From contig JACPNJ010000002.1 of assembly GCA_016185545.1 (NCBI GenBank), positions 51,299 to 115,298 on the forward strand: a stretch of DNA of 64,000 bases, in the 5' to 3' direction. The position numbers were made by a program, and so were the translations under genes. Positions 26,481 to 38,870 of this stretch are shown piece after piece; positions within the stretch are counted from its first letter, which is position 1; every line of letters begins with the position of its first letter. This DNA comes from Candidatus Yanofskybacteria bacterium (GTDB taxonomy: Bacteria > Patescibacteriota > Minisyncoccia > 2-02-FULL-40-12 > IGHO2-01-FULL-4-A). The notes beneath the pieces are model-generated. The model was given only the letters and a program-made list of their open reading frames with translations. It was not told the origin of the DNA and ran no database searches.

Positions 26481-27566
26481 TTGCGTTGGGTAAGATCTTT
26501 TATGTATAATAGAGGCATGGCTAAGTTGAGTAATAAATTTAAGGGGAATAAGCGAGTTGTGTTTTCGCACGGTAAGCAGAAAGAGTTTTTAGAAAAAACA
26601 CGATTTTCTTTAGGACTAAACAATGATAATTTCGCTAGATTAATAGGGGTTAGTCCAAGAACTCTAAATGACTGGAAAAGGGAAAAGTTTTATTTGCCTT
26701 TAAATAGCTTAAAAAAATTATGTGACAAGTCGGGTATATCTATGCCGAAGTATCTAGAAACAAAAGACCCATTTTGGTACACTTCACTGGGCGCGCATAA
26801 AGGAGGCATCGCATCTTTTAAAAAATACGGACACATAGGAGGAGATCCCGAATATCGCAAGAAAAAATGGCATGAATGGTGGCAAAGTAGCGGTAGATTC
26901 AGAAAAGATATGATAACTTTTCCTATTAAAGTTATAAAACCGTCCAAATCTAAAGAGCTAGCAGAGTTTGTCGGTATTTTACTAGGAGATGGAGCAATCA
27001 CTAAAAAACAGATTACTATAACTCTTCATAAAGTCGACGATAGGGATTTCACCGATTATATCTGCTACTTGATTGAAAAACTTTTTCATTTAAAACCAGC
27101 TCTTTACGAACGAGAAAGTGTCAATAACATAGTTATTTCCAGAACAGAATTAGTTAGATATTTTGTAAAAAATTTAGGCTTACATATTGGCAGTAAAATC
27201 CGACAACAAGTAGATGTTCCGATGTGGATTAAAAAGTCGGGGATATTTTCTAGGGCATGCTCGAAAGGATTGTTTGATACAGATGGATGTTTTTATATTG
27301 ATAAGCATAAATATAACAACAAAACTTATCTAAATTGTGGTATGAATTTTACAAATCGAGCCCTACCACTCCTTTCTTTTTTTAAAGAAACCTTACAAAA
27401 ATACAATCTCTCCCCTACTCAAAAAACTCATTACAGTATCTTTTTAAGAAGGGAGGAAGATATAATAAAATACTTTGATAAAATAGGGTCGTCTAATCCG
27501 AAACATTATAATAAATTCAATAATTTTTTAATAAATAAACACGGTGAGGTACCGAAGTGGTCATAA
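26481..27566 (+). CDS. HTH (XRE-like) + double-motif LAGLIDADG homing-endonuclease-like protein
   Basis: N-terminal HTH (LGLNNDNFARLIGVSPRTLNDW); two LAGLIDADG-type motifs (LAEFVGILLGDGAI and SKGLFDTDGCFYID); 3' end overlaps tRNA-Ser by 24 nt. Confidence 0.75.
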   Translation: MRWVRSFMYNRGMAKLSNKFKGNKRVVFSHGKQKEFLEKTRFSLGLNNDNFARLIGVSPRTLNDWKREKFYLPLNSLKKLCDKSGISMPKYLETKDPFWYTSLGAHKGGIASFKKYGHIGGDPEYRKKKWHEWWQSSGRFRKDMITFPIKVIKPSKSKELAEFVGILLGDGAITKKQITITLHKVDDRDFTDYICYLIEKLFHLKPALYERESVNNIVISRTELVRYFVKNLGLHIGSKIRQQVDVPMWIKKSGIFSRACSKGLFDTDGCFYIDKHKYNNKTYLNCGMNFTNRALPLLSFFKETLQKYNLSPTQKTHYSIFLRREEDIIKYFDKIGSSNPKHYNKFNNFLINKHGEVPKWS

Positions 27567-27633
27567 CGGGGACGCCTCGAAAGCGTCTTGCTCCGAAAGG
27601 GGCCCGTGGGTTCGAATCCCACCCTCACCGCCA
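27543..27633 (+). tRNA. tRNA-Ser (anticodon CGA), long variable arm, CCA encoded
   Basis: acceptor GGTGAGG/CCTCACC with discriminator G and CCA; anticodon stem GACGC/GCGTC with loop CTCGAAA; T-arm GTGGG-TTCGAAT-CCCAC. Confidence 0.8.
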
Positions 27634-27657
27634 GATGTCCAAGTTAGAACCTAATTT

Positions 27658-28353
27658 ATGCTAGTACAAAAATTCGATAAATTTCTACAATCAGTTGACC
27701 TCAAATCCTATCGTGATCAGTATAGGCCTATTAAAATTGTAGAAATGGATATGCCCAAAGAGGTTCAAGCTATCAATATGCTTTACAAAGTATATTGGGA
27801 CCAAAAGAAATTCTTGTCTTTTGAAGATTTTTACAAAGAGTACTTAAATTCTCTAAAAACAGAAATTGAATCCTTCAGACAAAGAACAACGATGTGTAAA
27901 GATTGTTTTTATCGAGGATTGCCCGCAAGAATTTATCGTACTTGGGCAAGTATTATCACTCAAATCCACGCTGGTTATGTAGCTGAGTCGGTTTTTGGCG
28001 AAGGTACAATTGCGATGTCAGGTGAGCTTGATCATCAAGGAGCTGATTTTCAAGTTAAATATAGAGGGAAGATTTTAAACTACCAAGTTAAAAAGAAATC
28101 ATTTAGTGGAGAAGTGAGGCGTGGTAAGGGTGGAGTTAAAAACAAAATCGATGGAGAATTTATTGATATTAACTATGAAGTTCCAAGTGGTGATTATTTC
28201 GAAAATCCAAAGAAAAAAGATGGCACTGATAAATTACCATACGCCAGGTTTATGGCAAATAAAGAATTAGAAAGATTCCCGAATGGTTTTGTGGTTTTTA
28301 CCCCTTATCCTTTTGAACAAAAGAAAAGAGAGATAGATAACTCTCTAAAATAA
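27658..28353 (+). CDS. hypothetical protein; candidate nuclease partner of the adjacent methyltransferase
   Basis: 231 aa; convergent with the MTase gene with a 9-nt 3' overlap; weak PD-(D/E)xK-like segment ELD...DFQVK; function unverified. Confidence 0.35.
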   Translation: MLVQKFDKFLQSVDLKSYRDQYRPIKIVEMDMPKEVQAINMLYKVYWDQKKFLSFEDFYKEYLNSLKTEIESFRQRTTMCKDCFYRGLPARIYRTWASIITQIHAGYVAESVFGEGTIAMSGELDHQGADFQVKYRGKILNYQVKKKSFSGEVRRGKGGVKNKIDGEFIDINYEVPSGDYFENPKKKDGTDKLPYARFMANKELERFPNGFVVFTPYPFEQKKREIDNSLK

Positions 28354-29868
28354 TTTAGCAACGGACTTTTTATCACCTACCATTTTTTCTGCCAGCCTTA
28401 CATAATCAGGATTAATCTCAAAGCCAATATAAGATTGACCTAATTCTTTGGCCGCCGCGCACTCCGAGCCGGTGCCAACGAAAGGCACTAACACAACACC
28501 ATCTTTTTTCGGCATAGCAGATTTTATCAATTTTTTAGATAATTCAAATGGTTTTTGTGTTGGATGCTTCATTATTTCATGTCCATCATGATTTTTTAGT
28601 TGTCGTGGCTCACATACAGAGTCGCAGGTTTTACACAAAAACCATCTTTCATTCATTCCAGCTCCACCGGCGAGGGCAGGAACTTTGATAACATCTCTTG
28701 GTAAAGCTCCACCCTCGTGGGCTTTATAAACGGTTTCCAAACCGCTACTACTGAATCTCCCCAGTGTTCCTTTTCTTACCTTTCCAGCGGCTCCATTTAG
28801 AAATCCCTCTGTATATGGTTCTCTAACATCATCTCTGTTGAAAACAGGTTTATCTTTCCAAGCGCAAATGATAGCTTCATGGCTTCTTTGCCAAAAATTT
28901 AGAGAGGCAACATTTTTATTAGTGTAATGCCATATAAGCCATCTTTTTTGTATAGGAATTTCAACAGAGAGATACGCTAGAATTTCACTAAAACCATAAA
29001 TAAAAATTGTTCCGTTTGGTTTTAGTGTTCTTATGCTTTCGTTTATCCAACTTTTACACCACTCAACATATTCTCCAAGTTCTCGTTTATCTATATTATT
29101 CCCAAAATCCTTTCCGATATTATAAGGTGGATCAATTATGATAACATCACAACTTTCGTCAGGAAGTTTTCTTAATTCTTGAATTGCGTCTCCCAAAATT
29201 ATTTGATTGAGAGATAATTTCTTATCCTTCTTTATTTCTTTTGTTATCGTTATTTCTTCCGCCTGTAATTCCTCTTCGTTTTTAATAACATCAATAACAA
29301 TTCCTTGAATTTTTATGTCTCGATCCCTCCTTATTATAATTGGCTCAAAAGTTTTATTTGCGGGTTGTAGCCGAATATGTCCTCGTTCTTTATAAAATCT
29401 CTTTAGTGTTGCCTCGTGATTGTCTATTAATGCAACAACTCGCTCGCCGTTTTCTGCAACATCTTGCTGTTTTACCAAAACAACATCTCCATCTTGAATA
29501 TTCTCGTCAATCATACTGTTGCCCATTACGCGCAAAGCGTAAAGATTGCCAGCGCTAGGCAATATATTTTTAGGAACAGCAATAAATTCGTCTTGACGAA
29601 TTGCCTCTATTGGCTCCCCAGCGGCGATAGTTCCTAAAAACGGAATTTTGACCATTGGTTTCTTAGAAGCAATGCTGATGGCACGGGCTTTATTTTCTAT
29701 ATTCCCCAAATAACCACCTTCTTTAAGTTTTGAGATATGAAAATGAACAGTTGAAACAGAGGCGAGTTTAAGTCGTTTTCTAATTTCCTCAAATGAAGGA
29801 GAATACCCCTTCTTTTGTGAGTAACTTTCTATGAAGTCGAGGACTTCTTTTTGGCGCTTTGTGAGCAT
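28345..29868 (-). CDS. LexA (HTH + S24 peptidase) fused to an N4/N6 DNA methyltransferase
   Basis: residues ~1-200 are LexA-like (winged HTH; RVMGNSM Ser; ATLKRF Lys); residues ~210-507 are MTase (motif IV DPPY, motif I FVGTGS); single uninterrupted 507-aa ORF. Confidence 0.75.
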   Translation of the reverse strand: MLTKRQKEVLDFIESYSQKKGYSPSFEEIRKRLKLASVSTVHFHISKLKEGGYLGNIENKARAISIASKKPMVKIPFLGTIAAGEPIEAIRQDEFIAVPKNILPSAGNLYALRVMGNSMIDENIQDGDVVLVKQQDVAENGERVVALIDNHEATLKRFYKERGHIRLQPANKTFEPIIIRRDRDIKIQGIVIDVIKNEEELQAEEITITKEIKKDKKLSLNQIILGDAIQELRKLPDESCDVIIIDPPYNIGKDFGNNIDKRELGEYVEWCKSWINESIRTLKPNGTIFIYGFSEILAYLSVEIPIQKRWLIWHYTNKNVASLNFWQRSHEAIICAWKDKPVFNRDDVREPYTEGFLNGAAGKVRKGTLGRFSSSGLETVYKAHEGGALPRDVIKVPALAGGAGMNERWFLCKTCDSVCEPRQLKNHDGHEIMKHPTQKPFELSKKLIKSAMPKKDGVVLVPFVGTGSECAAAKELGQSYIGFEINPDYVRLAEKMVGDKKSVAKLF

Positions 29869-29894
29869 ATAGATTTGACTTGTTTACTATGCAT

Positions 29895-29935
29895 CTATTA
29901 TAATAGAACAAAAATAGAAAATCAAAGCTACTTAT
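29895..29935 (-). promoter_or_regulatory. promoter (-35 TTGATT, 16 nt, -10 TATAAT); the -10 lies inside the 12-nt perfect palindrome CTATTATAATAG, a candidate operator
   Basis: read on the minus strand ~30 nt upstream of the lexA-MTase start; palindrome at 29895..29906. Confidence 0.35.
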
Positions 29936-29954
29936 CCACACCTTAAATAAGACC

Positions 29955-30833
29955 ATGGAAGACTCCAATATAGAAATTTCATTTGAACTCTCGGTTTGCC
30001 TTCATTTAGATAAAGAGGCGGTGTTTTTACTTAAAATCAACGAGCGAGATGTAGAGATAAAAACAAACGATGTCATATATGAAAATACTAGATTTGGTCG
30101 GGCACAAAATACAGAAATCTACAGTGATACAGATTCTGGTTTTCGTTACACCAAAATTACAATTTCATTTAAAGATACCAACCCAAAGATACCCCTTGAT
30201 AATTTAATTTTGGCATATAAAGATTTAATACTTGAAAGTGTTAATAAATTTATAGATGCATATCGATTTATTACTGGACGAGTAGCAATTTCCAATATTG
30301 CCTCAATATCAGATTTGTTCGGATTATCGTGTTTTAGACGAAATGCCAAAGGCGGCGGAACTGGAATGATAACTATAAATTTTGGAGGAGTAGGAATTGC
30401 TGGAAAGCAGGTTGCTATGGGACAATTTAAAACAGATCTAGATATTAAAGATAACGAAAAGATGCAGAACCTATTAAAGACAGGAGGGATTCCCCTGGAA
30501 GATCTTTTTATAATGGATGCAAAAAGACATCTTCAAATCGGACATAAAATTCAAGCATTGATTAGCGCAGTTATAGCCACTGAAATTGTTGTTAGATCAA
30601 AAAATAATTGGTTTGTAAGATTTTTGTATAAAGGAAAATTACTAGAATTTAATTTAATAAAAGAACTAAAGTATAAACTTCCGAAAGAAAGTCTATCTAT
30701 AATAATTGGAGGTATAAAAGAAAGAAATCGAGTAATTCATGACGGCAAGAGAGATTTGACGATTGATATTTCTAAGTACATAAAGGAAACAGAAAAAGCA
30801 ATAAATAAATTGAGAACTCCCGTTATTATTTAA
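29955..30833 (+). CDS. hypothetical protein (very AT-rich orphan)
   Basis: 292-aa ORF with no recognisable motifs; sits between the MTase locus and the DGR-like cassette. Confidence 0.5.
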   Translation: MEDSNIEISFELSVCLHLDKEAVFLLKINERDVEIKTNDVIYENTRFGRAQNTEIYSDTDSGFRYTKITISFKDTNPKIPLDNLILAYKDLILESVNKFIDAYRFITGRVAISNIASISDLFGLSCFRRNAKGGGTGMITINFGGVGIAGKQVAMGQFKTDLDIKDNEKMQNLLKTGGIPLEDLFIMDAKRHLQIGHKIQALISAVIATEIVVRSKNNWFVRFLYKGKLLEFNLIKELKYKLPKESLSIIIGGIKERNRVIHDGKRDLTIDISKYIKETEKAINKLRTPVII

Positions 30834-30991
30834 CAGAATAATCGACTGCGTTTTTGCCCTTATCTGACTTCGGCTTTGGTACCTCAAACCACTCGGGATG
30901 CACTTTGTAGATAGCCCTCAATTCTTGTATACTCCTATCAATATCCTTGAATTTAAACCACGTTTTCGGTTCTAACTTGCGGACATCGTCC

Positions 30992-31069
30992 CCGCCAAGT
31001 CGAGATAGGTTATCCCGCTGGAGGAGCGTCGATAACATAAAACCATCTAACGGTGGTTTTATGTTATCG
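30992..31069. repeat. boundary motif M1 (ccgccaagtcgagataggttatcccgctggagga) plus 16-bp perfect-stem hairpin (cgataacataaaacca/tggttttatgttatcg)
   Basis: a second copy of the motif sits at 38787..38820 with a different hairpin. Confidence 0.5.
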
Positions 31070-31122: not shown

Positions 31123-31222
31123 AGCCTAAACCTGCTTAACGGCTGGCATGGCACCAAACCACCTGCATACCAAACTTGTCGTTTGGCTTCCACACATGTG
31201 GTTATAGAGGAAACTCTATAAG
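31123..31222 (+). repeat. boundary element R1 (agcctaaacct ... ggcatggcac ... cacctgcat-hairpin-cacatgtggt), imperfect direct repeat of R2
   Basis: shared blocks with 38205..38313 read directly; possible structured ncRNA or att-like site. Confidence 0.45.
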
Positions 31223-31695
31223 AGAGCTTCTGCTCTCAGCCAGACGACTTTTTTATTGCTTGTTTAATCGAAAAAAGATCTGATTTTCAAGATCTTGCTG
31301 AAGAATAAAAGAATTACTATGACTTAAGATCCCCATATAGGAATGGATGGTATGGTCAAGTGACTCATAAGACAACGACCCTTGGTTTAAAAGATTCTCC
31401 CCCGAATTTTACCTGGTAGCAGTCCTTTAGTTTTCTCGGGACATCTACGCTGAAATAAAACACGTAGTTTCGTAGTTTTTACTACTTTCCGGCCACGCCA
31501 CTTCTTATAGCCAGGGCCATAAGAACTCCGGTGGATATCAAAAAGAGGAGGTTCGTAAGATTAAACCAGCCTGAGCCGGGCCCAATCTCTATTAACAAAA
31601 CTCCATGACATTATCACATAAAATACCCAGCCATAAAAGGTCTGGTAAAATTCTTCTTTAGGCTGTATATTTATATGTAAAAGTCCAATCTCACT

Positions 31696-32523
31696 ATGCC
31701 GTTCGAAGCCTATAAAATCTACGAAGAATACGAGCCGGACAAATTTAAAACATCAACCCAGAAAAAGGTTGAGCAGGCTTTAGATACCGCTAAAAAAGAA
31801 GGGCTGGTACCGGAGGGCAAAGAGATTAACATCGAGTTCGACGAGGCAAGAGAGATATTCGGCAAAGATTTTCTAGGTCCGGAAGCTATCAAGACCACAT
31901 ACGGAATAGAACTTACCCCGGATGAATTGCAAGAAATTGAGAATATACCATTTACCAGAGAAGAATTAGAACAAGCCAAACAACTGGGCATGATGTTAGT
32001 TCTTCGAGTGCCAAATATAGGCGAGGGCAAGGAAGCCAAACCTCTAACCATTGATCGAATCCGTGAGAAGTTTTCTGGCGGTGATACTTTTGGCGATCCC
32101 AAGAAAAAGAAGAAGAAAATGTTTTATCGAAGCAAAGGTGATGGGTGGTTTGATAAGGAAAAGTTTGCTCTCGAAGGAACTCCCAAGCTTGGCTGGGGCC
32201 TAGTAATGAAATCTGTCTTGCCTGACTCACTGAGCAAGAATTGGGATCAACAAGAGGAAGTACTAAAAAACTGGGCTAAGCAAAATAATATTGATCCGGC
32301 GTTAGTTAAACGCAGGACTCCTGTAGAAATTGCCTATGATACATTTCTCTACTATGGAGAGAATAAAGAAACTCTCTTAGAAGATAAGTGGGACTGGTCA
32401 GGCGTGCAGTCTTCCGGCGGCTACTTCGTCTTCGTTGGCGGCTTCGACTCGGGCGGTCTCTTCGTCAGCTACGATTCCCGCGACAATGCGGGTTCGAATC
32501 TCGGTGTCTGCCCCTCTCGGTAG
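31696..32523 (+). CDS. cassette paralog P1 (275 aa) with a hypervariable GC-rich C-terminal region
   Basis: first ~110 nt identical in all three paralogs; conserved end LGVCPSR; variable region at 32413..32502. Confidence 0.7.
   Translation: MPFEAYKIYEEYEPDKFKTSTQKKVEQALDTAKKEGLVPEGKEINIEFDEAREIFGKDFLGPEAIKTTYGIELTPDELQEIENIPFTREELEQAKQLGMMLVLRVPNIGEGKEAKPLTIDRIREKFSGGDTFGDPKKKKKKMFYRSKGDGWFDKEKFALEGTPKLGWGLVMKSVLPDSLSKNWDQQEEVLKNWAKQNNIDPALVKRRTPVEIAYDTFLYYGENKETLLEDKWDWSGVQSSGGYFVFVGGFDSGGLFVSYDSRDNAGSNLGVCPSR
32413..32502 (+). other. candidate DGR variable region (VR1)
   Basis: A-depleted, GC-rich 90-nt block; differs from VR2/VR3 only at codon positions 1-2 of NNC/NNT codons. Confidence 0.55.
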
Positions 32524-32590
32524 TTTCGCCTTGGGCGCTTGGATGCCTTGATCCTTATTGATCCCTTGGGGTATTCGAAAAAAAATTTAA
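32503..32590 (+). repeat. conserved post-VR element (IMH-like): ggtgtctgcccctctcggtag tttcgccttggg.gcttggat.ccttgat.cttattg
   Basis: about 80% identical after all three paralogs, including the non-coding part. Confidence 0.5.
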
Positions 32591-32629
32591 GACTGGTAAA
32601 ATCTTTATATAACTTGTAACATTTATTAT

Positions 32630-34315
32630 ATGTCTAACTCAAAAGAATCACTTCCCCCAATGCCAAATATGCCCACTACTCCTGAACGAATCATCGAGGA
32701 GAAGGGCATCGATAAAACAAAGAAGAAGGAAAAACTTTCTCCAGAGCAGCTTGAAGCTAGAGTCCAAGAACTTATGGACTTATCGGCCGCTCGAGCCGAA
32801 GCTTCTAAGCATATTCGTGAGTCTTGGGGCGGTTTGACCAAAAGCGAGCGAGAAGAACTGGCAGAGAAGGGAGATGATGCCACAGCAGCTCAATTCGACG
32901 CACTCAAAGTTGATCCGGAGCTGGCAGAATTTTCTGAAAATGTCCTTGCTGAATACGATAAGCGTATTCAAGAGCTTGGCAGCAACCCCAAGGTCATGGA
33001 GGCCTATAATGAACGCTTTGAAGGAATGAAAGACGCCTTAGCTAAAGTTCTCGAGTACGAACATCTCCATAAAGAGCTTGATGCAATCATCAGCAGTGAA
33101 CAGAAACTTTGTCTGATGTATGAAAAGGTCGGACGTTCGCCTGGGCCGATTGAGCGAACCAAACTGACTGATCTGGTAAAACGTAAAGAAGAATTACAAA
33201 AAGAAATAAACGGTTTTAAATTGGATTCGGCATCGATCAATATGCTTCGACGCCGAGAGGTTCGGGGTATGCAGCGAGATTTGGAGCGTTACAACTTTGC
33301 TGAAACTGAATCCCGCACCGAACTCATACGAGAAGTCTTGCCTGACTTGCTTCATGGCGCACCGATTCTGTTTCAAGGCGAGACTGGCTCTGGTAAAACC
33401 CAGTTGGCTAAATATATTTCTCATAGATTCCTTGGCCATGAAGTTTCGCCGATTTCTATCTCTGAACAAATAAAAGAGTCCCAAATCATGGGTCGGGTCA
33501 CCTTGAAAGAAGGTGCCACCGATTTTTTGTATTCTGAATTAGTCAAAAGCATGAAGGAGGGTCGCCCAGTAATTATGGATGAAATCAATTTAATGCCCCA
33601 TGAATTTCAGGGCATTCTCAACGAGATTTTCCAACTACGAATTGGCAGCACTTGGAAACACCCATCCACTGGCGAATCAATTAAGATTGCTCCCGGTTTT
33701 GTGATCTTTGCTACCGCCAACCTTAAGTCAGAGCGCTACAAACAACGTTACGAACTTGATGTTGCTACTCTTCGTCGTTTCATCGGTGGTGCCGGTGCGC
33801 GTGAAATCCACTACTTAGATTTAGGCAAGAAAAGCAAAGAGGGAGAATATATCGCACCCGAGACTCTTAAGATTCTAGCCTCGGTATTGGCAGATCGAAA
33901 CGGCAATATTACTTGGAGCGAACAAGAATCGCCTCAAAAACTTGATGAGCTAAAGAGATTTGTGGGTGCTTGCCGTAAAATCCAAGAAGACTTTACCTTG
34001 AGCGTCCGAGAAGGTTCTGAAGACTCATTGGCTCGAGGCGACAAGCTGGCTTTCAAAGAACTGGTCATCACCCTCAAGGATCAGATTGAGATTATGAAAG
34101 CATGGAAAGCGTCTGGTTTTGTCGAACCGCTAGAAAGTATTGTTCTGCGAGAATTCTTCAGAAAAGCTGAAATCAGCGGTCGAGCCGCCAAAGACCGAGA
34201 AAATATGGTCAAAGTATTTATGGCCAATAAGTTTTTCCAAGATACTAAACCTGAAGATTTTAATATCCAAGGCCTATCGGCTAAAACAGTTCGCCAATGG
34301 CAAGGAAAAGAATAA
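32630..34315 (+). CDS. MoxR-like AAA+ ATPase with an N-terminal coiled-coil extension
   Basis: Walker A GETGSGKT; Walker B VIMDEIN; sensor FATANL; ATLRRF. Confidence 0.8.
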   Translation: MSNSKESLPPMPNMPTTPERIIEEKGIDKTKKKEKLSPEQLEARVQELMDLSAARAEASKHIRESWGGLTKSEREELAEKGDDATAAQFDALKVDPELAEFSENVLAEYDKRIQELGSNPKVMEAYNERFEGMKDALAKVLEYEHLHKELDAIISSEQKLCLMYEKVGRSPGPIERTKLTDLVKRKEELQKEINGFKLDSASINMLRRREVRGMQRDLERYNFAETESRTELIREVLPDLLHGAPILFQGETGSGKTQLAKYISHRFLGHEVSPISISEQIKESQIMGRVTLKEGATDFLYSELVKSMKEGRPVIMDEINLMPHEFQGILNEIFQLRIGSTWKHPSTGESIKIAPGFVIFATANLKSERYKQRYELDVATLRRFIGGAGAREIHYLDLGKKSKEGEYIAPETLKILASVLADRNGNITWSEQESPQKLDELKRFVGACRKIQEDFTLSVREGSEDSLARGDKLAFKELVITLKDQIEIMKAWKASGFVEPLESIVLREFFRKAEISGRAAKDRENMVKVFMANKFFQDTKPEDFNIQGLSAKTVRQWQGKE

Positions 34316-35134
34316 ATGCCATTTGAAGCCTACAAAATCTACGAAGAATACGAACCGGATAAATTCAAGACCTCAACCCAGAAAAAGGTTGAGCAAGCTC
34401 TCGATACCGCTAAAAAAGAAGGACTAGTTCCGGAGGCAAAAGAGGCCCATGTTGAATTTGAAGAAGCCCAAGAAATATTTGGGCTAGATTTTCTTGGTCC
34501 CGAATCTGTTGGGACAACTTTTGGTGTTGAGTTTTCCCAAGAAGAGCAAAATCAGATAGAAAACATCCCATTTACTCGTGAAGAATTAGAAAAAGCCAAA
34601 GAGCTTGGAATGATGCTGGTTTTGCGAGTGCCACGAGTTGGCAAGGACAAGACTGCTAAGCCCCTTACGATCAAGCAAATGCGAGGTGCATTCAAAGGAG
34701 AAGATAAACTTGGCGATCCTAAAAAGAAAAAATCCCAAATCTTCTTCGATCAGGATTGGTATAACAAGGAAGAATTCGCCACCAAAGACACTCCATCCCT
34801 TGGTTGGGGTCTTGTTACGAAGAAAATACTAGAAGAATCAAGAAGTAAAAACTGGGATCAGCAACAGGAAGTACTTAAAAAGTGGGCAGAAGAAAATGGC
34901 ATTGACCCCACTTCAATTAAACGCCGAACTCCAGTTGAGATAGCTTACGATACACTTCTTTATTATGGCTCGAACAAGGAGTCATTGTTAACAGATACCT
35001 GGGACTGGTCCGGCGTGCAGTCATCCGACGGCGGCTTCGTCGGCGTTGGCTACTTCGACTCGGTCGGTCTCAGCGTCTACGACAATTCCCGCGGCAATGC
35101 GGATTCGGATCTCGGTGTCTGCCCCTCCCGGTAG
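34316..35134 (+). CDS. cassette paralog P2 (272 aa) with a hypervariable C-terminal region
   Basis: start abuts the MoxR stop; same N-terminus and LGVCPSR end as P1 and P3. Confidence 0.7.
   Translation: MPFEAYKIYEEYEPDKFKTSTQKKVEQALDTAKKEGLVPEAKEAHVEFEEAQEIFGLDFLGPESVGTTFGVEFSQEEQNQIENIPFTREELEKAKELGMMLVLRVPRVGKDKTAKPLTIKQMRGAFKGEDKLGDPKKKKSQIFFDQDWYNKEEFATKDTPSLGWGLVTKKILEESRSKNWDQQQEVLKKWAEENGIDPTSIKRRTPVEIAYDTLLYYGSNKESLLTDTWDWSGVQSSDGGFVGVGYFDSVGLSVYDNSRGNADSDLGVCPSR
35034..35123 (+). other. candidate DGR variable region (VR2)
   Basis: see VR1. Confidence 0.55.
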
Positions 35135-35214
35135 TTTCGCCTTGGGAGCTTGGATCCCTTGATTCTTATTGGTTCCATTGGGTATTCGAAAAATTTTTAT
35201 ATAACTACACCTAA

Positions 35215-37209
35215 ATGCCAGAATCATTTCCCATAAATAGAATAGAAACTCCTCAAGACGAACCTAAACCAGAGGTTCCAAAGCAGGAAAGCGAAATTGA
35301 TGCTCAAGCAGTTGAGGAATTTTTAAATAAGGAAACTGAAATACTAGGAGCTTACGGGTTACGAGGTGATATTACACTGGAACGAGGGAATGGCGGTTGG
35401 GCATTTGATTTTCAGAATCGAAAGTTAATTTACGATCCAAAGTTCTTCATAGAACGTGGCTATAGCCTCCAGGAAACTCTCTTTGCCACCACTCACGAAC
35501 TCATGGCTCACTACGGTGAGCTTATGCGTGATCCGGAGCTTGTCTTAAAGGAAGCTAAGAGATATAGCGCAAAAGGTCACCTCCATCTTTTATACAATAT
35601 CTTTGAAGATGTGTTGGGCAACAGACGTATTGTTGCCGAATTGCCGTTCTTAGAAGAAACTCGCGAATCGCTTTATCGAGAAAAGATGTTTCCACCGACT
35701 GACTACACTGATAAATCTTCTCATGTTCAGTTTACTTATGGTTTTATTCGCCAGATGATGGTGCCTGGAGAGGCAGTACAACTTGGGCCGGAGGCGCAGG
35801 CCGCTTTGGATAAGCTGAGAAGCTTTGGTTCAGATAAAATAGATATCCTTGATCTAGTTACTACACCAACCATTGACCCCAAAGATCGCTTTCAAATAAT
35901 GCGAACAATTGTTGAACCTATTTACCGAGAACTCTATGAAAAGGATTTAGAAGAAGAAAAGAAAAGCGGCAAAAGCAAGGATCAGGGCGAAGGGTCACCC
36001 ACGGATACTCAAGTTTCTGATAAACCTCAACAAGGCCAAGGTTCTGGCCAAGATAAGAAAAAATGGTGGCAAAGAAAAAAGGAAACACCCCAAGAAGGAA
36101 AAGGTAAAGAGGAACAACCTGGCAAAGGTGGGGATAAAAAATCCAGTGAACGAGCCGCTAGAGAAGCGGCTGAAAAGAAATTTAAGAAAGAATATAAAAC
36201 CTATCACGACGGTCATCCGGAACCCATAACTCATGCCGAAGAAAAGGAGATCAAGAAGTTGATGGAAGAAATAGTTGCTAAAAAGGGCGGACAACCTACT
36301 CTAGAGCAAAATATTCTTGAGGAATGGGCTCGTGAGCATGGAGTCAGCGCCGAGGATGTTCTTGGCTATCGCAAAGAGTATGAAGAGATCGCTCCCCTAG
36401 TAGCTGAGCTAAGGGAAGTTTTTAAGAAGATCATTGCCAGGAGATTAAAAGAACGATGGCAGTTTTCGCCTCAGCTCAAAACAGAAGGCGAAGAACTAGC
36501 CGAAGATACGCTAGTCGACTCTTCAATTGAATCTCGAGCCGGAGGCCAGCCAAGGGCATTTAGAGAGATTGAGAGACATAAACGAGAGCAGGAGGGCTAC
36601 GGCATGCTTGATATGTCTTTGGTTAATGATTTATCCGGTTCTATGAATGACGGGGATGGCAGTAAGCTTGAGATGGACCGCAAGAGCAAACTCCTATTCT
36701 TGGAATCTCTGGCCGATTTTCAAAAAGAAATAGAAGAAGCCGAATTTGAAAGTGGTGTTTCGTTGGGTCTTCAAGTTAGAACCGAAACCAGAGCTTTTGG
36801 CGATTTTGGAGATGTAGAATTAAAGTCGTTATCACCTGATCTTTCTGAAAAAGATAGAATTGGGATTTGGAAAAAAATGCATAAAGCTGGTGGCGGTACG
36901 CCGGATTATCTTTCTCTTGAAGAAGTTTTAAACTCAATTACTCCTGAACAAGAAAAGGAGTTAAGAGAGAAATTAAGAAGAAAAGTTATCGTCGTACTTT
37001 CTGATGGTGAAAGCCAAGATTCAGGGAAAGTTCAGGCTGTTTTACTCCAGTTAAGGAATAAGGGGGTTATTTGTTTAGGATTGGGCATGACTGAATCAGG
37101 TCAAGCTGTTAAAGAAACATATAAACCGGATGCCGAAGTAATAACAGATATCAAGGCGTTGCCTCAAGCGGTTCAAAAAGTTATTCTAAAATATACCCAA
37201 GATTTGTAA
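35215..37209 (+). CDS. zincin-like (HExxH) + low-complexity linker + von Willebrand factor A domain protein
   Basis: HELMAH motif near residue 95; Lys/Glu/Gly-rich linker; MIDAS DxSGS (DLSGSMND) and VVLSDGES. Confidence 0.75.
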   Translation: MPESFPINRIETPQDEPKPEVPKQESEIDAQAVEEFLNKETEILGAYGLRGDITLERGNGGWAFDFQNRKLIYDPKFFIERGYSLQETLFATTHELMAHYGELMRDPELVLKEAKRYSAKGHLHLLYNIFEDVLGNRRIVAELPFLEETRESLYREKMFPPTDYTDKSSHVQFTYGFIRQMMVPGEAVQLGPEAQAALDKLRSFGSDKIDILDLVTTPTIDPKDRFQIMRTIVEPIYRELYEKDLEEEKKSGKSKDQGEGSPTDTQVSDKPQQGQGSGQDKKKWWQRKKETPQEGKGKEEQPGKGGDKKSSERAAREAAEKKFKKEYKTYHDGHPEPITHAEEKEIKKLMEEIVAKKGGQPTLEQNILEEWAREHGVSAEDVLGYRKEYEEIAPLVAELREVFKKIIARRLKERWQFSPQLKTEGEELAEDTLVDSSIESRAGGQPRAFREIERHKREQEGYGMLDMSLVNDLSGSMNDGDGSKLEMDRKSKLLFLESLADFQKEIEEAEFESGVSLGLQVRTETRAFGDFGDVELKSLSPDLSEKDRIGIWKKMHKAGGGTPDYLSLEEVLNSITPEQEKELREKLRRKVIVVLSDGESQDSGKVQAVLLQLRNKGVICLGLGMTESGQAVKETYKPDAEVITDIKALPQAVQKVILKYTQDL

Positions 37210-37210
37210 T

Positions 37211-38038
37211 ATGCCATTTGAAGCCTACAAAATATACGAAGAATACGAACCAGATAAATACAAAACCTCAACCCAGAAAAAGGTTGAGCAGGCCTTGGAT
37301 ACTGCTAAAAAAGAGGGCCTGATACCCGAAGCCAAAGAAGTTAATATCGAATTCGACGAAGCCAAAGAAATATTTGGCAAAGACTTTCTCGGCCCCGAAG
37401 CAATTCAAACTACTTTCGGCGTAGAATTAACACCAGACGAGCTCAAAGAAGTAGAAGACGTTCCCTTTACCAGAGAAGAACTTGAGCAAGCAAAACAACT
37501 CGGCATGATGCTCGTTTTAAGAGTACCTAGACTTGGCGAAGGCAAAACAGAGCGTCCTCTAACAATTGATTCTGCCAGAGAACTATTTACCAAGGGCGAT
37601 TCCTTGGGTGATCCTAAGAAAAAGAAACAAAAAGTATTCTATAGTAAAAAGGGCGAGAGTTGGTACAACAATGAAAAGTTTGTGACCCAAGACACTCCTA
37701 AACTCGGCTGGGGTCTAGTCATGAAATCGGTATTACCAGATTCGCTAAGCAAGAATTGGGACCAGCAGGAAGAAGTTCTCAAGAAGTGGGCAAAGGATAA
37801 TAACATAGACCCTGCCCTAGTTAAAAGAAGAACTCCTGTAGAAATTGCCTACGATACCCTTATATATTACGGCGAGAATAAAGAATCATTGCTAAAGAAT
37901 AGATACGACTGGTCTGGCGTGCAGTCTTCCGGCGGCGACTTCGTCTTCGTTGGCCACTTCGACTCGGACGGTCTCCTCGTCAGCCACGATTCCCGCGGCA
38001 TTGCGCATTCGTATCTCGGTGTCTGCCCCTCTCGGTAG
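37211..38038 (+). CDS. cassette paralog P3 (275 aa) with a hypervariable C-terminal region
   Basis: ATG 2 nt after the vWA stop; same architecture as P1 and P2. Confidence 0.7.
   Translation: MPFEAYKIYEEYEPDKYKTSTQKKVEQALDTAKKEGLIPEAKEVNIEFDEAKEIFGKDFLGPEAIQTTFGVELTPDELKEVEDVPFTREELEQAKQLGMMLVLRVPRLGEGKTERPLTIDSARELFTKGDSLGDPKKKKQKVFYSKKGESWYNNEKFVTQDTPKLGWGLVMKSVLPDSLSKNWDQQEEVLKKWAKDNNIDPALVKRRTPVEIAYDTLIYYGENKESLLKNRYDWSGVQSSGGDFVFVGHFDSDGLLVSHDSRGIAHSYLGVCPSR
37928..38017 (+). other. candidate DGR variable region (VR3)
   Basis: see VR1. Confidence 0.55.
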
Positions 38039-38204
38039 TTTTGTAGGGTGCTTGGGAGCTTGGACCCCTTGATTCTTATTGGTTCTCTTGGGTATTCGAA
38101 AAAATTTTAAGATTCTCTAGTTGGTATCTCATTTTACTAATTAATTGACCTAAGCTAAGGTTGGACGCAATGGTCGTTTTTTGCTATTATTCTCTTAACA
38201 ATTA

Positions 38205-38313
38205 AGCCTAAACCTAGAGATTATTCTATAGGCATGGCACTAAATATACCCACCTGCATTCTGAACCCGTCGTTCAGCTCCATGCAGGTGGTCTATATCC
38301 GAAAGGGTATAGG
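38205..38313 (+). repeat. boundary element R2: nested hairpin CCACCTGCAT[tCTGAACccgtcGTTCAGctc]CATGCAGGTGG, followed by GNRA-tetraloop hairpins
   Basis: imperfect direct repeat of R1; inverted repeats read directly. Confidence 0.45.
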
Positions 38314-38388
38314 AAGGCGAAAGCCTTCGGCTAGCGGCGGGCTTTGAGTTTAAAGAAGCCCCCCGTTGGTTAAGAAATCCACCTGCGT

Positions 38389-38646
38389 ATGAAAAACATT
38401 AAAAAAATTGTTCTTTTCGGTTTTGGAGCATTTGTTCTCCTGGTCGTTGTAATCCTAATAGTTCCTTCTTCTGATAAAAAAGAAGGTGTACAAACAGTAC
38501 AAAATTTACCAAGTGTAAGTCCTAGCGTAAGTGCAAGCCCTGTTGTTAGTAATAAGGCGACTGTAAAAGCAACTCAGAAACCCCAAGCGTCTGGAGAATA
38601 TGCAGTCGTTAAAGTTGTTGACGGTGATACTGTTGATTTAAATTGA
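38389..38646 (+). pseudogene. N-terminal fragment of a secreted thermonuclease (SNase)-like protein
   Basis: signal/TM then YAVVKVVDGDTVDL (SNase N-terminal motif), then a stop after 85 aa; the rest of the domain is absent. Confidence 0.4.
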
Positions 38647-38786: not shown

Positions 38787-38870
38787 CCGCCAGGTTGAGA
38801 TAGGCTATCACGCCGGAGGAAGATCGAATAAAACGCGCAATTAAAAACGGCTTCAGCCGTTTTTAATTGC
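38787..38870. repeat. boundary motif M2 (ccgccaggttgagataggctatcacgccggagga) plus terminator hairpin gcaattaaaaacggc-ttca-gccgtttttaattgc
   Basis: direct repeat of M1; a GC-rich UUCG-loop hairpin (gccgccttcggcggc) lies just upstream at ~38742. Confidence 0.5.

What the first reader, a model, noticed from the sequence alone, without database searches (positions are those of the whole stretch)
32413..38017. Three tandem paralogs carry C-terminal variable regions with the signature of diversity-generating retroelement (DGR) mutagenesis
The three cassette paralogs are nearly identical over their first ~110 nt and over their last 7 codons plus 3' flank. Between those, a ~90-nt C-terminal block is strongly GC-rich and almost adenine-free in an AT-rich genome. 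A codon-wise, ungapped alignment of the three blocks (32413..32502, 35034..35123, 37928..38017) shows 13 variable codons, every one of the form NNC or NNT. Examples are tac/gac/ggc, ggc/cac/tac, ttc/ctc/agc, aat/tat/gat and ggt/cat/gat. Variation occurs only at codon positions 1 and 2, never at position 3. All intervening codons are invariant (tcc, ttc, gtc, gtt, ggc, ttc gac tcg, ggt ctc, tcc cgc, gcg, tcg, ctc). This is what DGR homing produces when AAC/AAT codons in a template repeat are copied with adenine-specific misincorporation into a variable region at the extreme C-terminus of a target protein, classically a C-type-lectin-fold ligand-binding domain. The A-depletion, the GC-rich conserved segment immediately 3' of each block (ggtgtctgcccctctcggtag..., IMH-like) and the placement 7 codons before the stop all fit that pattern. 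No reverse transcriptase or template repeat is present in this 64-kb window. The system would therefore be either trans-acting from elsewhere in the genome or a relic. Three targets in a row, interleaved with MoxR and vWA genes, is an unusual architecture.
Basis: partly seen in the sequence, partly recalled or inferred. Interest (0 to 1): 0.9.

Follow-up and report, generated by a model that had tools for sequence, protein, structure and literature searches.

The report
Orphaned DGR target array, diversifier deleted
Three sister genes in a tiny groundwater bacterium (Candidatus Yanofskybacteria) carry tips that were rewritten by a known retroelement-based hypermutation system, but a 1.5-kb deletion has removed that system's enzyme and template next door, so the three variable tips now appear frozen.

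Summary
Three paralogs (31696-32523, 34316-35134, 37211-38038) share a C-terminal block with 13 variable codons. These change only at codon positions 1 and 2. None of 30 third positions vary there, against 72% in the gene bodies (P~2e-17).

New here: the window holds a 44-codon remnant of the RT 3' end (31259-31390, minus strand). Compared with at least four intact relatives, about 1,507 bp is missing at 31387/31389: RT residues 1-306, avd and the TR. The remnant still shows dN/dS ~0.01, so the loss is recent. Three other assemblies carry the same deletion and identical VRs.

This is a recently orphaned member of the known CPR DGR clade, linked to a MoxR/MIDAS-VWA pair. Rescue in trans from elsewhere in the genome cannot be excluded. 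Interest is modest.

The parts
31256..31390 (-). Remnant of the DGR reverse transcriptase gene: the last 44 codons plus the stop codon.
   Evidence: tblastn with the L001 RT matches residues 306-350 (E 2.6e-12). 43 of 44 residues are identical to the intact RT of L016, and 44 of 44 to P0369. Against L016 there are 16 synonymous differences and 1 amino-acid difference; dN 0.015, dS 1.49.
31387..31389 (.). Deletion junction. About 1,507 bp is missing relative to L016 (positions 1332-2838): RT residues 1-306, avd, the TR and 50 nt beyond it.
   Evidence: Homology to L016, L020 and L022 stops at window 31387 and resumes at 31389. L021 covers only the left side, and L010, L013 and L014 only the right side, with the same ends. 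A GATTAT repeat is seen at the left breakpoint in L016 and L022 and at the right breakpoint in six relatives. The junction is present in three Logan assemblies.
31389..31695 (+). Conserved non-coding spacer that lies between the TR and the first downstream gene in intact relatives. It probably holds divergent promoter and leader sequences.
   Evidence: It is about 90% or more identical to the L010, L013, L014 and L016 spacers, and a core is conserved even in L001 and L012. RNAalifold gives no convincing covariation.
31696..32523 (+). DGR target protein T1 (275 aa): a disordered N-terminal tail followed by an FGE/C-type-lectin fold.
32404..32526 (+). VR1, the TR-homologous stretch. The variable block is 32413-32502; the GC-rich 3' end (GGTGTCTGCCCCTCTCGGTAGTTT) is IMH-like.
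   Evidence: 13 of 13 mismatches to the L010/L013 TR fall on TR adenines. Codon table.
32524..32585 (+). Conserved 3' element after the T1 stop: five YTTGR motifs spaced 8-10 nt apart, then TTCGAAAAAA.
   Evidence: It is conserved after every target in the window and in L001, L009, L010 and L012, but is absent after the TRs. No hairpin is predicted (z +0.3 to +1.3).
32630..34315 (+). MoxR-type AAA+ ATPase (561 aa). Its stop codon abuts the T2 start codon.
   Evidence: Pfam AAA_5, E 6.5e-20. It sits at the same position in L001, L012 and L019.
34316..35134 (+). DGR target protein T2 (272 aa).
35015..35137 (+). VR2.
   Evidence: 12 of 15 mismatches to the L010/L013 TR fall on TR adenines. The three others are two near the edges and one G>A at TR position 70.
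35135..35193 (+). Conserved 3' element after the T2 stop.
35215..37209 (+). VWA/MIDAS protein (664 aa). A conserved N-terminal domain carries an invariant H94-E95...H99 motif, and the VWA domain is C-terminal. T3 starts 1 nt after its stop codon.
37211..38038 (+). DGR target protein T3 (275 aa).
37919..38041 (+). VR3. The variable block is 37928-38017.
   Evidence: 13 of 13 mismatches to the L010/L013 TR fall on TR adenines.
38039..38105 (+). Conserved 3' element after the T3 stop, present even though no gene follows.
31123..31237 (+). LOOT RNA (RF03000), left copy, just beyond the stop codon of the RT remnant.
   Evidence: Rfam 49.9 bits against a gathering score of 46.4. The orthologue in L016 scores 44.5 bits.
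38205..38328 (+). LOOT RNA (RF03000), right copy, about 170 nt after the T3 stop.
   Evidence: Rfam 79.8 bits. LOOT sits at the same position in L012 and L009. Aligned with the other copies.

Best explanation
**What it is.** This is the target operon of a diversity-generating retroelement (DGR) in a Candidatus Yanofskybacteria (Patescibacteria/CPR) genome. It encodes three paralogous cytoplasmic C-type-lectin-fold proteins, interleaved with a MoxR-type AAA+ ATPase and a MIDAS/VWA protein.

**How the VRs were made (shown in relatives, inferred for this lineage).**
- An RT-Avd complex encoded directly upstream copied a 123-nt template repeat into cDNA.
- During copying, TR adenines were randomised. 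The TR holds 9 AAY and 5 GAY codons, which allows about 15^9 x 4^5, or ~4e13, protein variants per VR.
- The cDNA then replaced the 3' end of each of the three genes.
- This explains three features: the VRs are identical at every non-adenine position, they have dS = 0, and they differ only at codon positions 1 and 2.

**What happened here.** A deletion of about 1.5 kb removed RT residues 1-306, avd and the TR. Intact relatives carry a short GATTAT repeat at both breakpoints, which may have mediated it. The deletion left a 44-codon RT stub. It is recent: the stub still shows the substitution pattern of a selected gene, and VR1 and VR3 carry no non-adenine change.

**Consequence (inferred).** Unless another DGR elsewhere in the genome supplies RT and TR in trans, the three VRs are now frozen alleles. 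The operon continues as a fixed-specificity binding module. The CLec proteins probably act as ligand sensors or adaptors for the MoxR/MIDAS-VWA remodelling pair.
For: **DGR origin of the VRs**
- The codon-position pattern and its statistics.
- The same scaffold with hypervariable positions appears in more than 100 homologues.
- Intact RT (Pfam RVT_1), bAvd and an inverted TR lie upstream of the same cassette in L001/L008, L010, L012, L013, L014, L016, L019, L020 and L022.
- The L010/L013 TR differs from the window's VRs at 38 of 41 mismatches on TR adenines over the 123-nt stretch. The binomial P~6e-24 was computed on the earlier 111-nt stretch, where 39 of 41 fell on the 24 TR adenines.
- The target has a CLec/FGE fold.

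**Deletion**
- The RT remnant.
- The same two homology end-points, 31387 and 31389, against L016, L020 and L022; L021 shows the left end only, and L010, L013 and L014 the right end only.
- No TR, Avd or RT anywhere else in the 64 kb.
- The same junction in three separate Logan assemblies.

**Recency**
- The remnant has dN 0.015 and dS 1.49.
- VR1 and VR3 have zero non-A differences from the TR.

**Stasis**
- The only near-identical strain variant (L003, with 2 SNPs in the T2 body) has identical VRs.

**Target genes still under selection**
- Body dN/dS is 0.014 against L010, and the window's VWA protein is 98% identical to that of L010.

**MoxR/VWA partner pair**
-. The literature on MoxR-vWA systems with DGR-diversified CLec domains is PMC7159879 and PMC10907252.
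Against: - Only 64 kb of a 124.7-kb contig from an incomplete MAG could be inspected. A second DGR with a compatible TR elsewhere is not excluded. Multiple DGR loci per genome are reported for CPR (PMC10907252, citing Paul 2017).
- No intact allele more than 93% identical to the window was found, so the date of the deletion rests on the substitution pattern of only 43 codons.
- The junction sequence (CCTTGGTTTAAAAG) is not the exact product expected from recombination between the GATTAT repeats seen in relatives.
- The evidence for VR stasis comes from consensus assemblies of runs with neighbouring accession numbers, not from read-level data.
- The functional link between the targets and MoxR/VWA is inferred from conserved gene order only.
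Confidence: 0.8

Rival explanations
1. The array is still being diversified. A second DGR (RT, Avd and a compatible TR) elsewhere in the genome acts in trans on these three VRs, so the local deletion has no functional consequence.
For: - The VRs, their IMH-like ends and the conserved 3' elements are all intact.
- VR1 and VR3 carry no non-adenine change.
- Remote targets are known for some DGRs (PMC5758913).
- CPR genomes can hold several DGR loci (PMC10907252).
- Only about half of the source contig was visible.
Against: - In every related locus examined the TR and RT are in cis, directly upstream.
- In Wu et al., remote targets more than 100 kb away were found only in Lineage 4 and its neighbours on the RT tree (PMC5758913).
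- The VRs are identical in three other assemblies, including one strain variant with SNPs elsewhere.
- No TR, Avd or RT lies within 31 kb upstream or 26 kb downstream.
Confidence: 0.15
2. The missing RT-avd-TR is an assembly artefact. It would be a misjoin caused by the TR/VR repeats, and the real genome would carry an intact DGR.
For: The TR is a 123-nt inverted repeat of the three VRs. Such repeats commonly break or tangle short-read assemblies, and several related contigs end at or near the cassette.
Against: - The junction is not at a TR/VR repeat boundary. It lies 50 nt outside the TR on one side and inside the RT gene on the other.
- The same junction was assembled independently from three sequencing runs, as well as in the MAG.
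Confidence: 0.03
3. There was no retroelement. The pattern would be ordinary paralog divergence, with gene conversion homogenising the 3' ends and positive selection acting on binding residues.
For: Gene conversion could give dS = 0 over a short tract.
Against: - It does not explain why 38 of 41 differences from an independent template in other genomes fall on adenines.
- It does not explain why all variable codons are NNY.
- An RT remnant and complete RT-Avd-TR modules flank the same cassette in relatives.
Confidence: 0.01

Closest known systems
CPR/Patescibacteria DGRs (DGR clade 2 of Roux et al. 2021, PMC8144416; the 'CPR set' of Wu et al. 2018, PMC5758913; Paul et al. 2017)
   Same: - The host lineage is the same: Yanofskybacteria from groundwater metagenomes.
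- The RT family is the same, with about 7,900 relatives at E<=1e-30, and a bAvd accessory gene is present.
- Mutagenesis is adenine-specific.
- The targets are small, with no Pfam domain, no signal peptide and no transmembrane segment, as reported for clade 2.
   Different: - This locus has lost RT, avd and TR, so RT-centred DGR finders would not report it.
- It has three targets, whereas CPR DGRs are said to tend to have one (PMC5758913).
- In the intact relatives, avd lies antisense between the TR and the RT.
Treponema denticola TvpA, Bordetella phage Mtd and Thermus TaqVP (structurally solved DGR variable proteins)
   Different: - There is no detectable sequence similarity.
- The protein is cytoplasmic and small.
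- The VR ends in LGVCPSR.
- The conserved element downstream of the VR is a periodic YTTGR array, not a hairpin or cruciform. That the Bordetella phage BPP-1 DGR uses a hairpin/cruciform there is from my own knowledge (Guo et al. 2011, PMC3240598); I did not read the paper here.
MoxR-vWA 'ternary' conflict systems with DGR-diversified FGS/CLec domains (Kaur et al. 2020, PMC7159879; Dore et al. 2024, PMC10907252)
   Same: A MoxR-class AAA+ ATPase and a vWA protein are encoded together with DGR-diversified CLec domains. The proposed logic is that the hypervariable CLec domain acts as a ligand sensor coupled to an NTPase.
   Different: - No VMAP component or recognised effector domain was found.
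- The CLec domains are three stand-alone proteins, not fusions to the vWA protein.
- The host is a CPR bacterium, a group not scored in that survey's multicellularity statistics.
NorQ/NorD and midasin (Rea1) AAA+/MIDAS pairs
   Different: The clients are unknown. The 460-residue region N-terminal to the VWA domain has no assigned fold here.

Membership tests
Diversity-generating retroelement (DGR) system | VR/TR pair whose differences fall on TR adenines | tested here: met
   Tested against TRs of related loci (L010 and L013). VR1 has 13 of 13, VR3 13 of 13 and VR2 12 of 15 mismatches on TR adenines over 123 nt. P~6e-24 was computed on the 111-nt stretch.
Diversity-generating retroelement (DGR) system | A template repeat present in the same genome | tested here: not met
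   Absent from the 64-kb window. The position where relatives carry it is deleted. The rest of the genome could not be searched.
Diversity-generating retroelement (DGR) system | An intact DGR-type reverse transcriptase | tested here: not met
   Only a 44-codon C-terminal remnant remains. No ORF of 150 aa or more in the window carries a Y-x-DD motif. An intact 350-aa RT (Pfam RVT_1) is present in relatives.
Diversity-generating retroelement (DGR) system | Accessory variability determinant (Avd) | tested here: not met
   tblastn with Avd from L001 and L010 finds nothing in the window. A bAvd gene is present in relatives.
Diversity-generating retroelement (DGR) system | VR at the C-terminus of a C-type-lectin-fold (or Ig-fold) target protein | tested here: met
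Diversity-generating retroelement (DGR) system | GC-rich 3' boundary (IMH) where VR/TR homology ends | tested here: met
   Homology ends at GGTGTCTGCCCCTCTCGGTAGTTT. In L014 and L016 the 3' end of the TR differs from the VR at 2 positions, which resembles an IMH*. Function was not tested.
Diversity-generating retroelement (DGR) system | Ongoing diversification of the VRs | tested here: inconclusive
   The VRs are identical in three other assemblies and in one strain variant. No read-level data were available.
MoxR-vWA ternary conflict system (Kaur et al. 2020) | MoxR-class AAA+ ATPase | tested here: met
   Pfam AAA_5, E 6.5e-20.
MoxR-vWA ternary conflict system (Kaur et al. 2020) | A vWA-domain component | tested here: met
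MoxR-vWA ternary conflict system (Kaur et al. 2020) | A VMAP third component and/or a recognisable effector domain | tested here: not met
   No such Pfam, NCBIfam or PADLOC hit in the operon. The conserved H-E...H motif in the N-terminal domain of the VWA protein remains unassigned.
LOOT RNA (Rfam RF03000) | Covariance-model score above the gathering threshold over the full model | tested here: met
   79.8 and 49.9 bits against 46.4, both over model positions 1-121.

The most novel reading that the evidence does not exclude
The operon would be a CPR version of a DGR-programmed sensor machine. Three hypervariable cytoplasmic CLec proteins share a strongly conserved acidic N-terminal tail. That tail would dock them onto a MoxR/MIDAS-VWA remodelling pair. 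The whole cassette would sit on a module bracketed by LOOT RNA genes and a 34-nt direct repeat, a module that moves between genomic sites. The natural RT-avd-TR deletion strain would then be a frozen-repertoire variant of an otherwise continuously reprogrammed recognition system, and LOOT RNA would gain its first functional context.
Probability: 0.2. Interest if true: 0.55.

Novelty: new member of a known kind. Interest (0 to 1): 0.35.

Why it matters
- It shows that the sequence signature alone (NNY-only variable codons, dS = 0, A-depletion) correctly flags DGR targets even where the retroelement is gone. RT-centred surveys miss such orphan arrays.
- It documents a dated, natural loss of the diversifier. 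This is useful for asking how long DGR repertoires persist and whether frozen variants are selected.
- It adds a CPR example of CLec targets linked to a MoxR/MIDAS-VWA pair, extending an association described mainly in cyanobacteria and other multicellular bacteria.
- None of this changes the known mechanism of DGRs.

Tried and rejected
- **RT or TR elsewhere in the window.** blastn-short, a degenerate pattern with 3 mismatches, a Y-x-DD motif scan, and tblastn with RT and Avd found only the three VRs and the RT stub.
- **Extending the view beyond the window.** Look-ups of the end genes failed or returned 1-kb contigs, so the trans hypothesis stays open.
- **The source genome in the GTDB representatives.** It is not there. 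The pattern scan found only relatives.
- **An intact allele of the same strain.** The best intact relatives are only 91-93% identical in the flanks. One RT (P0369) has a C-terminus identical to the remnant, but its contig is also only 91% identical.
- **Sequence-level family assignment of the target.** Pfam, NCBIfam, PADLOC and PDB sequence searches gave nothing. Only the fold comparison worked.
- **A hairpin or cruciform downstream of the VRs.** None is predicted.
- **A conserved RNA structure in the spacer between the TR and the first target.** There is no convincing covariation.
- **Paul et al. 2017.** The paper could not be read, so its content is cited only second-hand.

Full report
**1. 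The observation**

The region holds an operon-like row on the + strand:
- T1, 31696-32523
- an AAA_5/MoxR ATPase, 32630-34315
- T2, 34316-35134
- a VWA protein, 35215-37209
- T3, 37211-38038

T1, T2 and T3 are 71-80% identical proteins. With 35024-35113 the ungapped codon alignment gives exactly what was described: 13 of 30 codons vary, always at position 1 and/or 2, and all are NNC or NNT.

The contrast with the rest of the genes is decisive:
- Third positions vary in 72% of 235 body codons but in 0 of 30 VR codons (P~2e-17).
- dS between VRs is 0 while dN is 0.18-0.30. dS between the gene bodies is saturated.
- The VR blocks are 61-62% GC and 11-13% A. The bodies are 42-43% GC and 35-37% A.

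Two statements need softening. The first ~110 nt are 86-90% identical in DNA and near-identical only as protein. The blocks are A-depleted, not A-free.

**2. What made the VRs**

The proteins have more than 120 homologues, all from Patescibacteria and many named Yanofskybacteria. They share the scaffold WDWSGVQSSxGxFVxVGxFxSxGLxVxxxxRxxxxSxLGVCPSR, with hypervariable x positions. An exact look-up identifies the source as a Candidatus Yanofskybacteria MAG (HYX20_01155, 01165, 01170 and 01175; contig 124,717 nt).

In related loci the same cassette is preceded by three elements: a 350-aa RT (Pfam RVT_1, minus strand), a 124-aa bAvd (plus strand), and a TR on the minus strand. These loci are:
- L001/L008, Patescibacteria isolate REEB140 (JAGWJP010000001, L008) and GCA_028868355.1 (L001)
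- L010, Yanofskybacteria RIFCSPLOWO2_01_FULL_42_49
- L012, L013, L014, L016, L020 and L022
- L019, a contig from IMG/VR

The TR of L010 and L013 is TCC GAC GGC AAC TTC GTC AAC GTT GGC AAC TTC GAC TCG GAC GGT CTC AAC GTC AAC AAC GAT TCC CGC GAC AAT GCG AAT TCG AAT CTC GGT GTC TGC CCC TCT CGG TAG. Over the 123-nt homologous stretch it differs from VR1 at 13 positions, VR3 at 13 and VR2 at 15. Of these, 13, 13 and 12 fall on TR adenines. The binomial P~6e-24 comes from the earlier 111-nt comparison.

Its four errors put A at the first position of GAY codons.

With 9 AAY and 5 GAY codons the TR can encode about 15^9 x 4^5, or ~4e13, variants per VR (my arithmetic). Thirteen of the 14 adenine-bearing codons differ among the window's three VRs.

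**3. The fold**

- the Legionella Lcl C-terminal domain, and dozens of animal CTLDs

 No sequence-level family or PDB match exists.

**4. Where the RT and TR went**

No TR, Avd or intact RT is in the 64 kb. However, tblastn with a relative's RT hits window 31393-31259 on the minus strand, matching RT residues 306-350 (E 2.6e-12).

L016 is a 3.9-kb metagenome contig found with a TR-specific pattern. It shows the intact layout: tRNA-Ser, a short repeat, a hairpin, LOOT RNA, RT, Avd, TR, spacer, target. The window aligns to it up to 31387 and again from 31389. L016 positions 1332-2838 (1,507 bp) are absent. That stretch holds RT residues 1-306, all of avd, the TR, and 50 nt beyond the TR.

The same two end-points recur against L020 and L022. 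L021 shows the left one only, and L010, L013 and L014 the right one only. Intact relatives have GATTAT at both breakpoints. This suggests a slippage or microhomology deletion, although the window's junction is not the exact expected product.

The junction is not at a TR/VR repeat edge, and it is present in three Logan assemblies from different runs. An assembly artefact is therefore unlikely.

**5. When it happened**

The 44-codon stub is 43 of 44 identical to L016's RT and 44 of 44 identical to another intact RT, P0369. Against L016 it carries 16 synonymous differences and one amino-acid difference (dN 0.015, dS 1.49). This matches the pattern in the functional target body (dN 0.019, dS 1.37 against L010). 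Nearly all divergence therefore accrued while the RT was under selection, and the loss is recent on that scale.

Consistent with this, VR1 and VR3 have no non-adenine difference from the TR. VR2 has three: two near the edges of the stretch and one internal G>A.

**6. Is the array still being diversified?**

This could not be settled. In favour of 'frozen':
- The only near-identical strain variant on record (L003/P0141, with two SNPs in the T2 body) has identical VRs.
- VR1 is identical in all three Logan contigs.

All homologues with different VRs also differ by 3% or more in the body. The rest of the contig and genome was not retrievable, so a trans-acting second DGR remains possible. I put that at about 0.15. 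In every relative examined the module is in cis. In Wu et al., targets more than 100 kb from the RT were seen only in Lineage 4 and its neighbours on the RT tree (PMC5758913).

**7. Context and likely function**

The cassette's gene order is conserved but plastic:
- L001: RT-Avd-TR-T-MoxR-T-VWA-T
- L012: lacks the first target
- L010: lacks MoxR and one target
- the window: lacks RT-Avd-TR

T2 and T3 start 0-1 nt after the stops of the MoxR and VWA genes, which suggests translational coupling.

MoxR-vWA systems with DGR-diversified CLec/FGS domains have been described as candidate conflict or antigen-sensor systems, mainly in cyanobacteria and other multicellular bacteria (PMC7159879, PMC10907252). 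CPR DGR targets are reported as small proteins without recognisable domains (PMC8144416). Here no VMAP or effector domain was found, so I do not file the operon as a ternary system.

**8. Comparison and novelty**

This is a member of the known CPR DGR clade. Intact orthologues come from Rifle and GW2011 Yanofskybacteria genomes, and groundwater CPR genomes are what the published CPR DGR sets were drawn from (PMC5758913). I could not check whether these particular loci are listed there.

What is specific to this window:
- the diversifier was cleanly and recently deleted, leaving a three-VR orphan array
- the VR-only sequence signature sufficed to detect it

I rate it a new member of a known kind, with interest about 0.35.

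**9. Side observations**

- Two LOOT RNAs (RF03000) and a 34-nt direct repeat bracket the cassette.
- LOOT also follows the last target in L012 and L009.
- A periodic YTTGR element follows every VR but no TR.
- A TaqI-like restriction enzyme and a LexA-methylase fusion sit between tRNA-Ser and the cassette, where L016 has nothing.
- Large serine recombinases and differing neighbours in relatives suggest that the cassette moves between sites.

Noticed in passing
window 31123-31237 (+) and 38205-38328 (+); L012 10994-11116; L009 3814-3940 (-); L016 1066-1180: Two LOOT RNA (Rfam RF03000) genes bracket the DGR cassette in direct orientation. One lies just beyond the RT stub and the other about 170 nt after the last target. 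LOOT sits at the same place after the last target in two relatives, and next to the intact RT in L016 (44.5 bits, just below threshold). I know of no assigned function for LOOT (not checked here), so a link to DGR cassettes would be new. Its background frequency in these genomes is unknown.
   Followed up: partly
window 30992-31025 and 38787-38820 (+): A 34-nt direct repeat, 85% identical, with core GAGATAGGNTATCNCGCNGGAGGA. It occurs only twice in 64 kb (0 expected by chance). Each copy is followed by a long hairpin, and together they bracket the whole cassette including both LOOT genes. In L016 the left copy directly follows a tRNA-Ser gene and overlaps its CCGCCA 3' end. It may be an att-like scar of a mobile module.
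   Followed up: partly
window 32524-32585, 35135-35193, 38039-38105 (+); same position in L001, L009, L010, L012: A conserved ~60-nt element follows the stop codon of every target: five YTTGR motifs at 8-10-nt spacing, ending in TTCGAAAAAA. It is absent downstream of the TRs and does not fold into a hairpin. It may be the target-side recognition element for homing, taking the place of the hairpin/cruciform of other DGRs, or it may be a protein-binding array.
   Followed up: partly
window 31389-31695; L010, L013, L014, L016, L001, L012 equivalents: A non-coding spacer lies between the TR and the first downstream gene. It is more conserved than the neighbouring coding sequence and is kept even in L012, where the first target is missing. 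No clear covariation was found. It is probably a divergent promoter and leader region.
   Followed up: partly
window 27543-30991: Between tRNA-Ser(cga) (27543-27633) and the left repeat lies a 3.4-kb block that L016 does not have. It holds a TaqI-like restriction endonuclease (27658-28353), a LexA-DNA-binding/S24 peptidase fused to an N6/N4 DNA methylase (28345-29868, minus strand), and an unassigned 292-aa ORF. This looks like a restriction-modification cassette inserted next to the tRNA gene. The LexA-methylase fusion is unusual.
   Followed up: partly
L001 2590-4166; L016 1203-2788; L010 6460-7998: In the intact relatives, avd is on the opposite strand to the TR and RT, and lies between them. 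Its start codon overlaps the RT start by about 15 nt. A TR-to-RT transcript would therefore run antisense through avd.
   Followed up: no
L001 10952-12292; L012 2026-3228; L011; L010 437-2251: The cassette has different neighbours in different genomes: infB here, ybeY-ftsA in L010 and L011, and a large serine recombinase in L001 and L012. N6/N4 methylases and HTH_Tnp_1_2 genes are often nearby, and one copy is on an IMG/VR contig (L019). This suggests that the DGR cassette is carried on a mobile island.
   Followed up: partly
window 35215-37209 (VWA protein residues 50-250): The N-terminal domain of the VWA protein is confidently modelled (pLDDT 70-94) and has an invariant H94-E95-x3-H99 motif plus many invariant acidic and aromatic residues across 32 homologues. 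This might be a metal site or a peptidase-like site. No family could be assigned.
   Followed up: partly
window 38389-38646 (+): An 85-aa ORF with an N-terminal hydrophobic segment ends in YAVVKVVDGDTVDLN. This resembles the start of a staphylococcal-nuclease domain (resemblance judged by eye), so the ORF is probably a truncated gene. A full SNase-domain gene lies upstream of the RT in L019.
   Followed up: no
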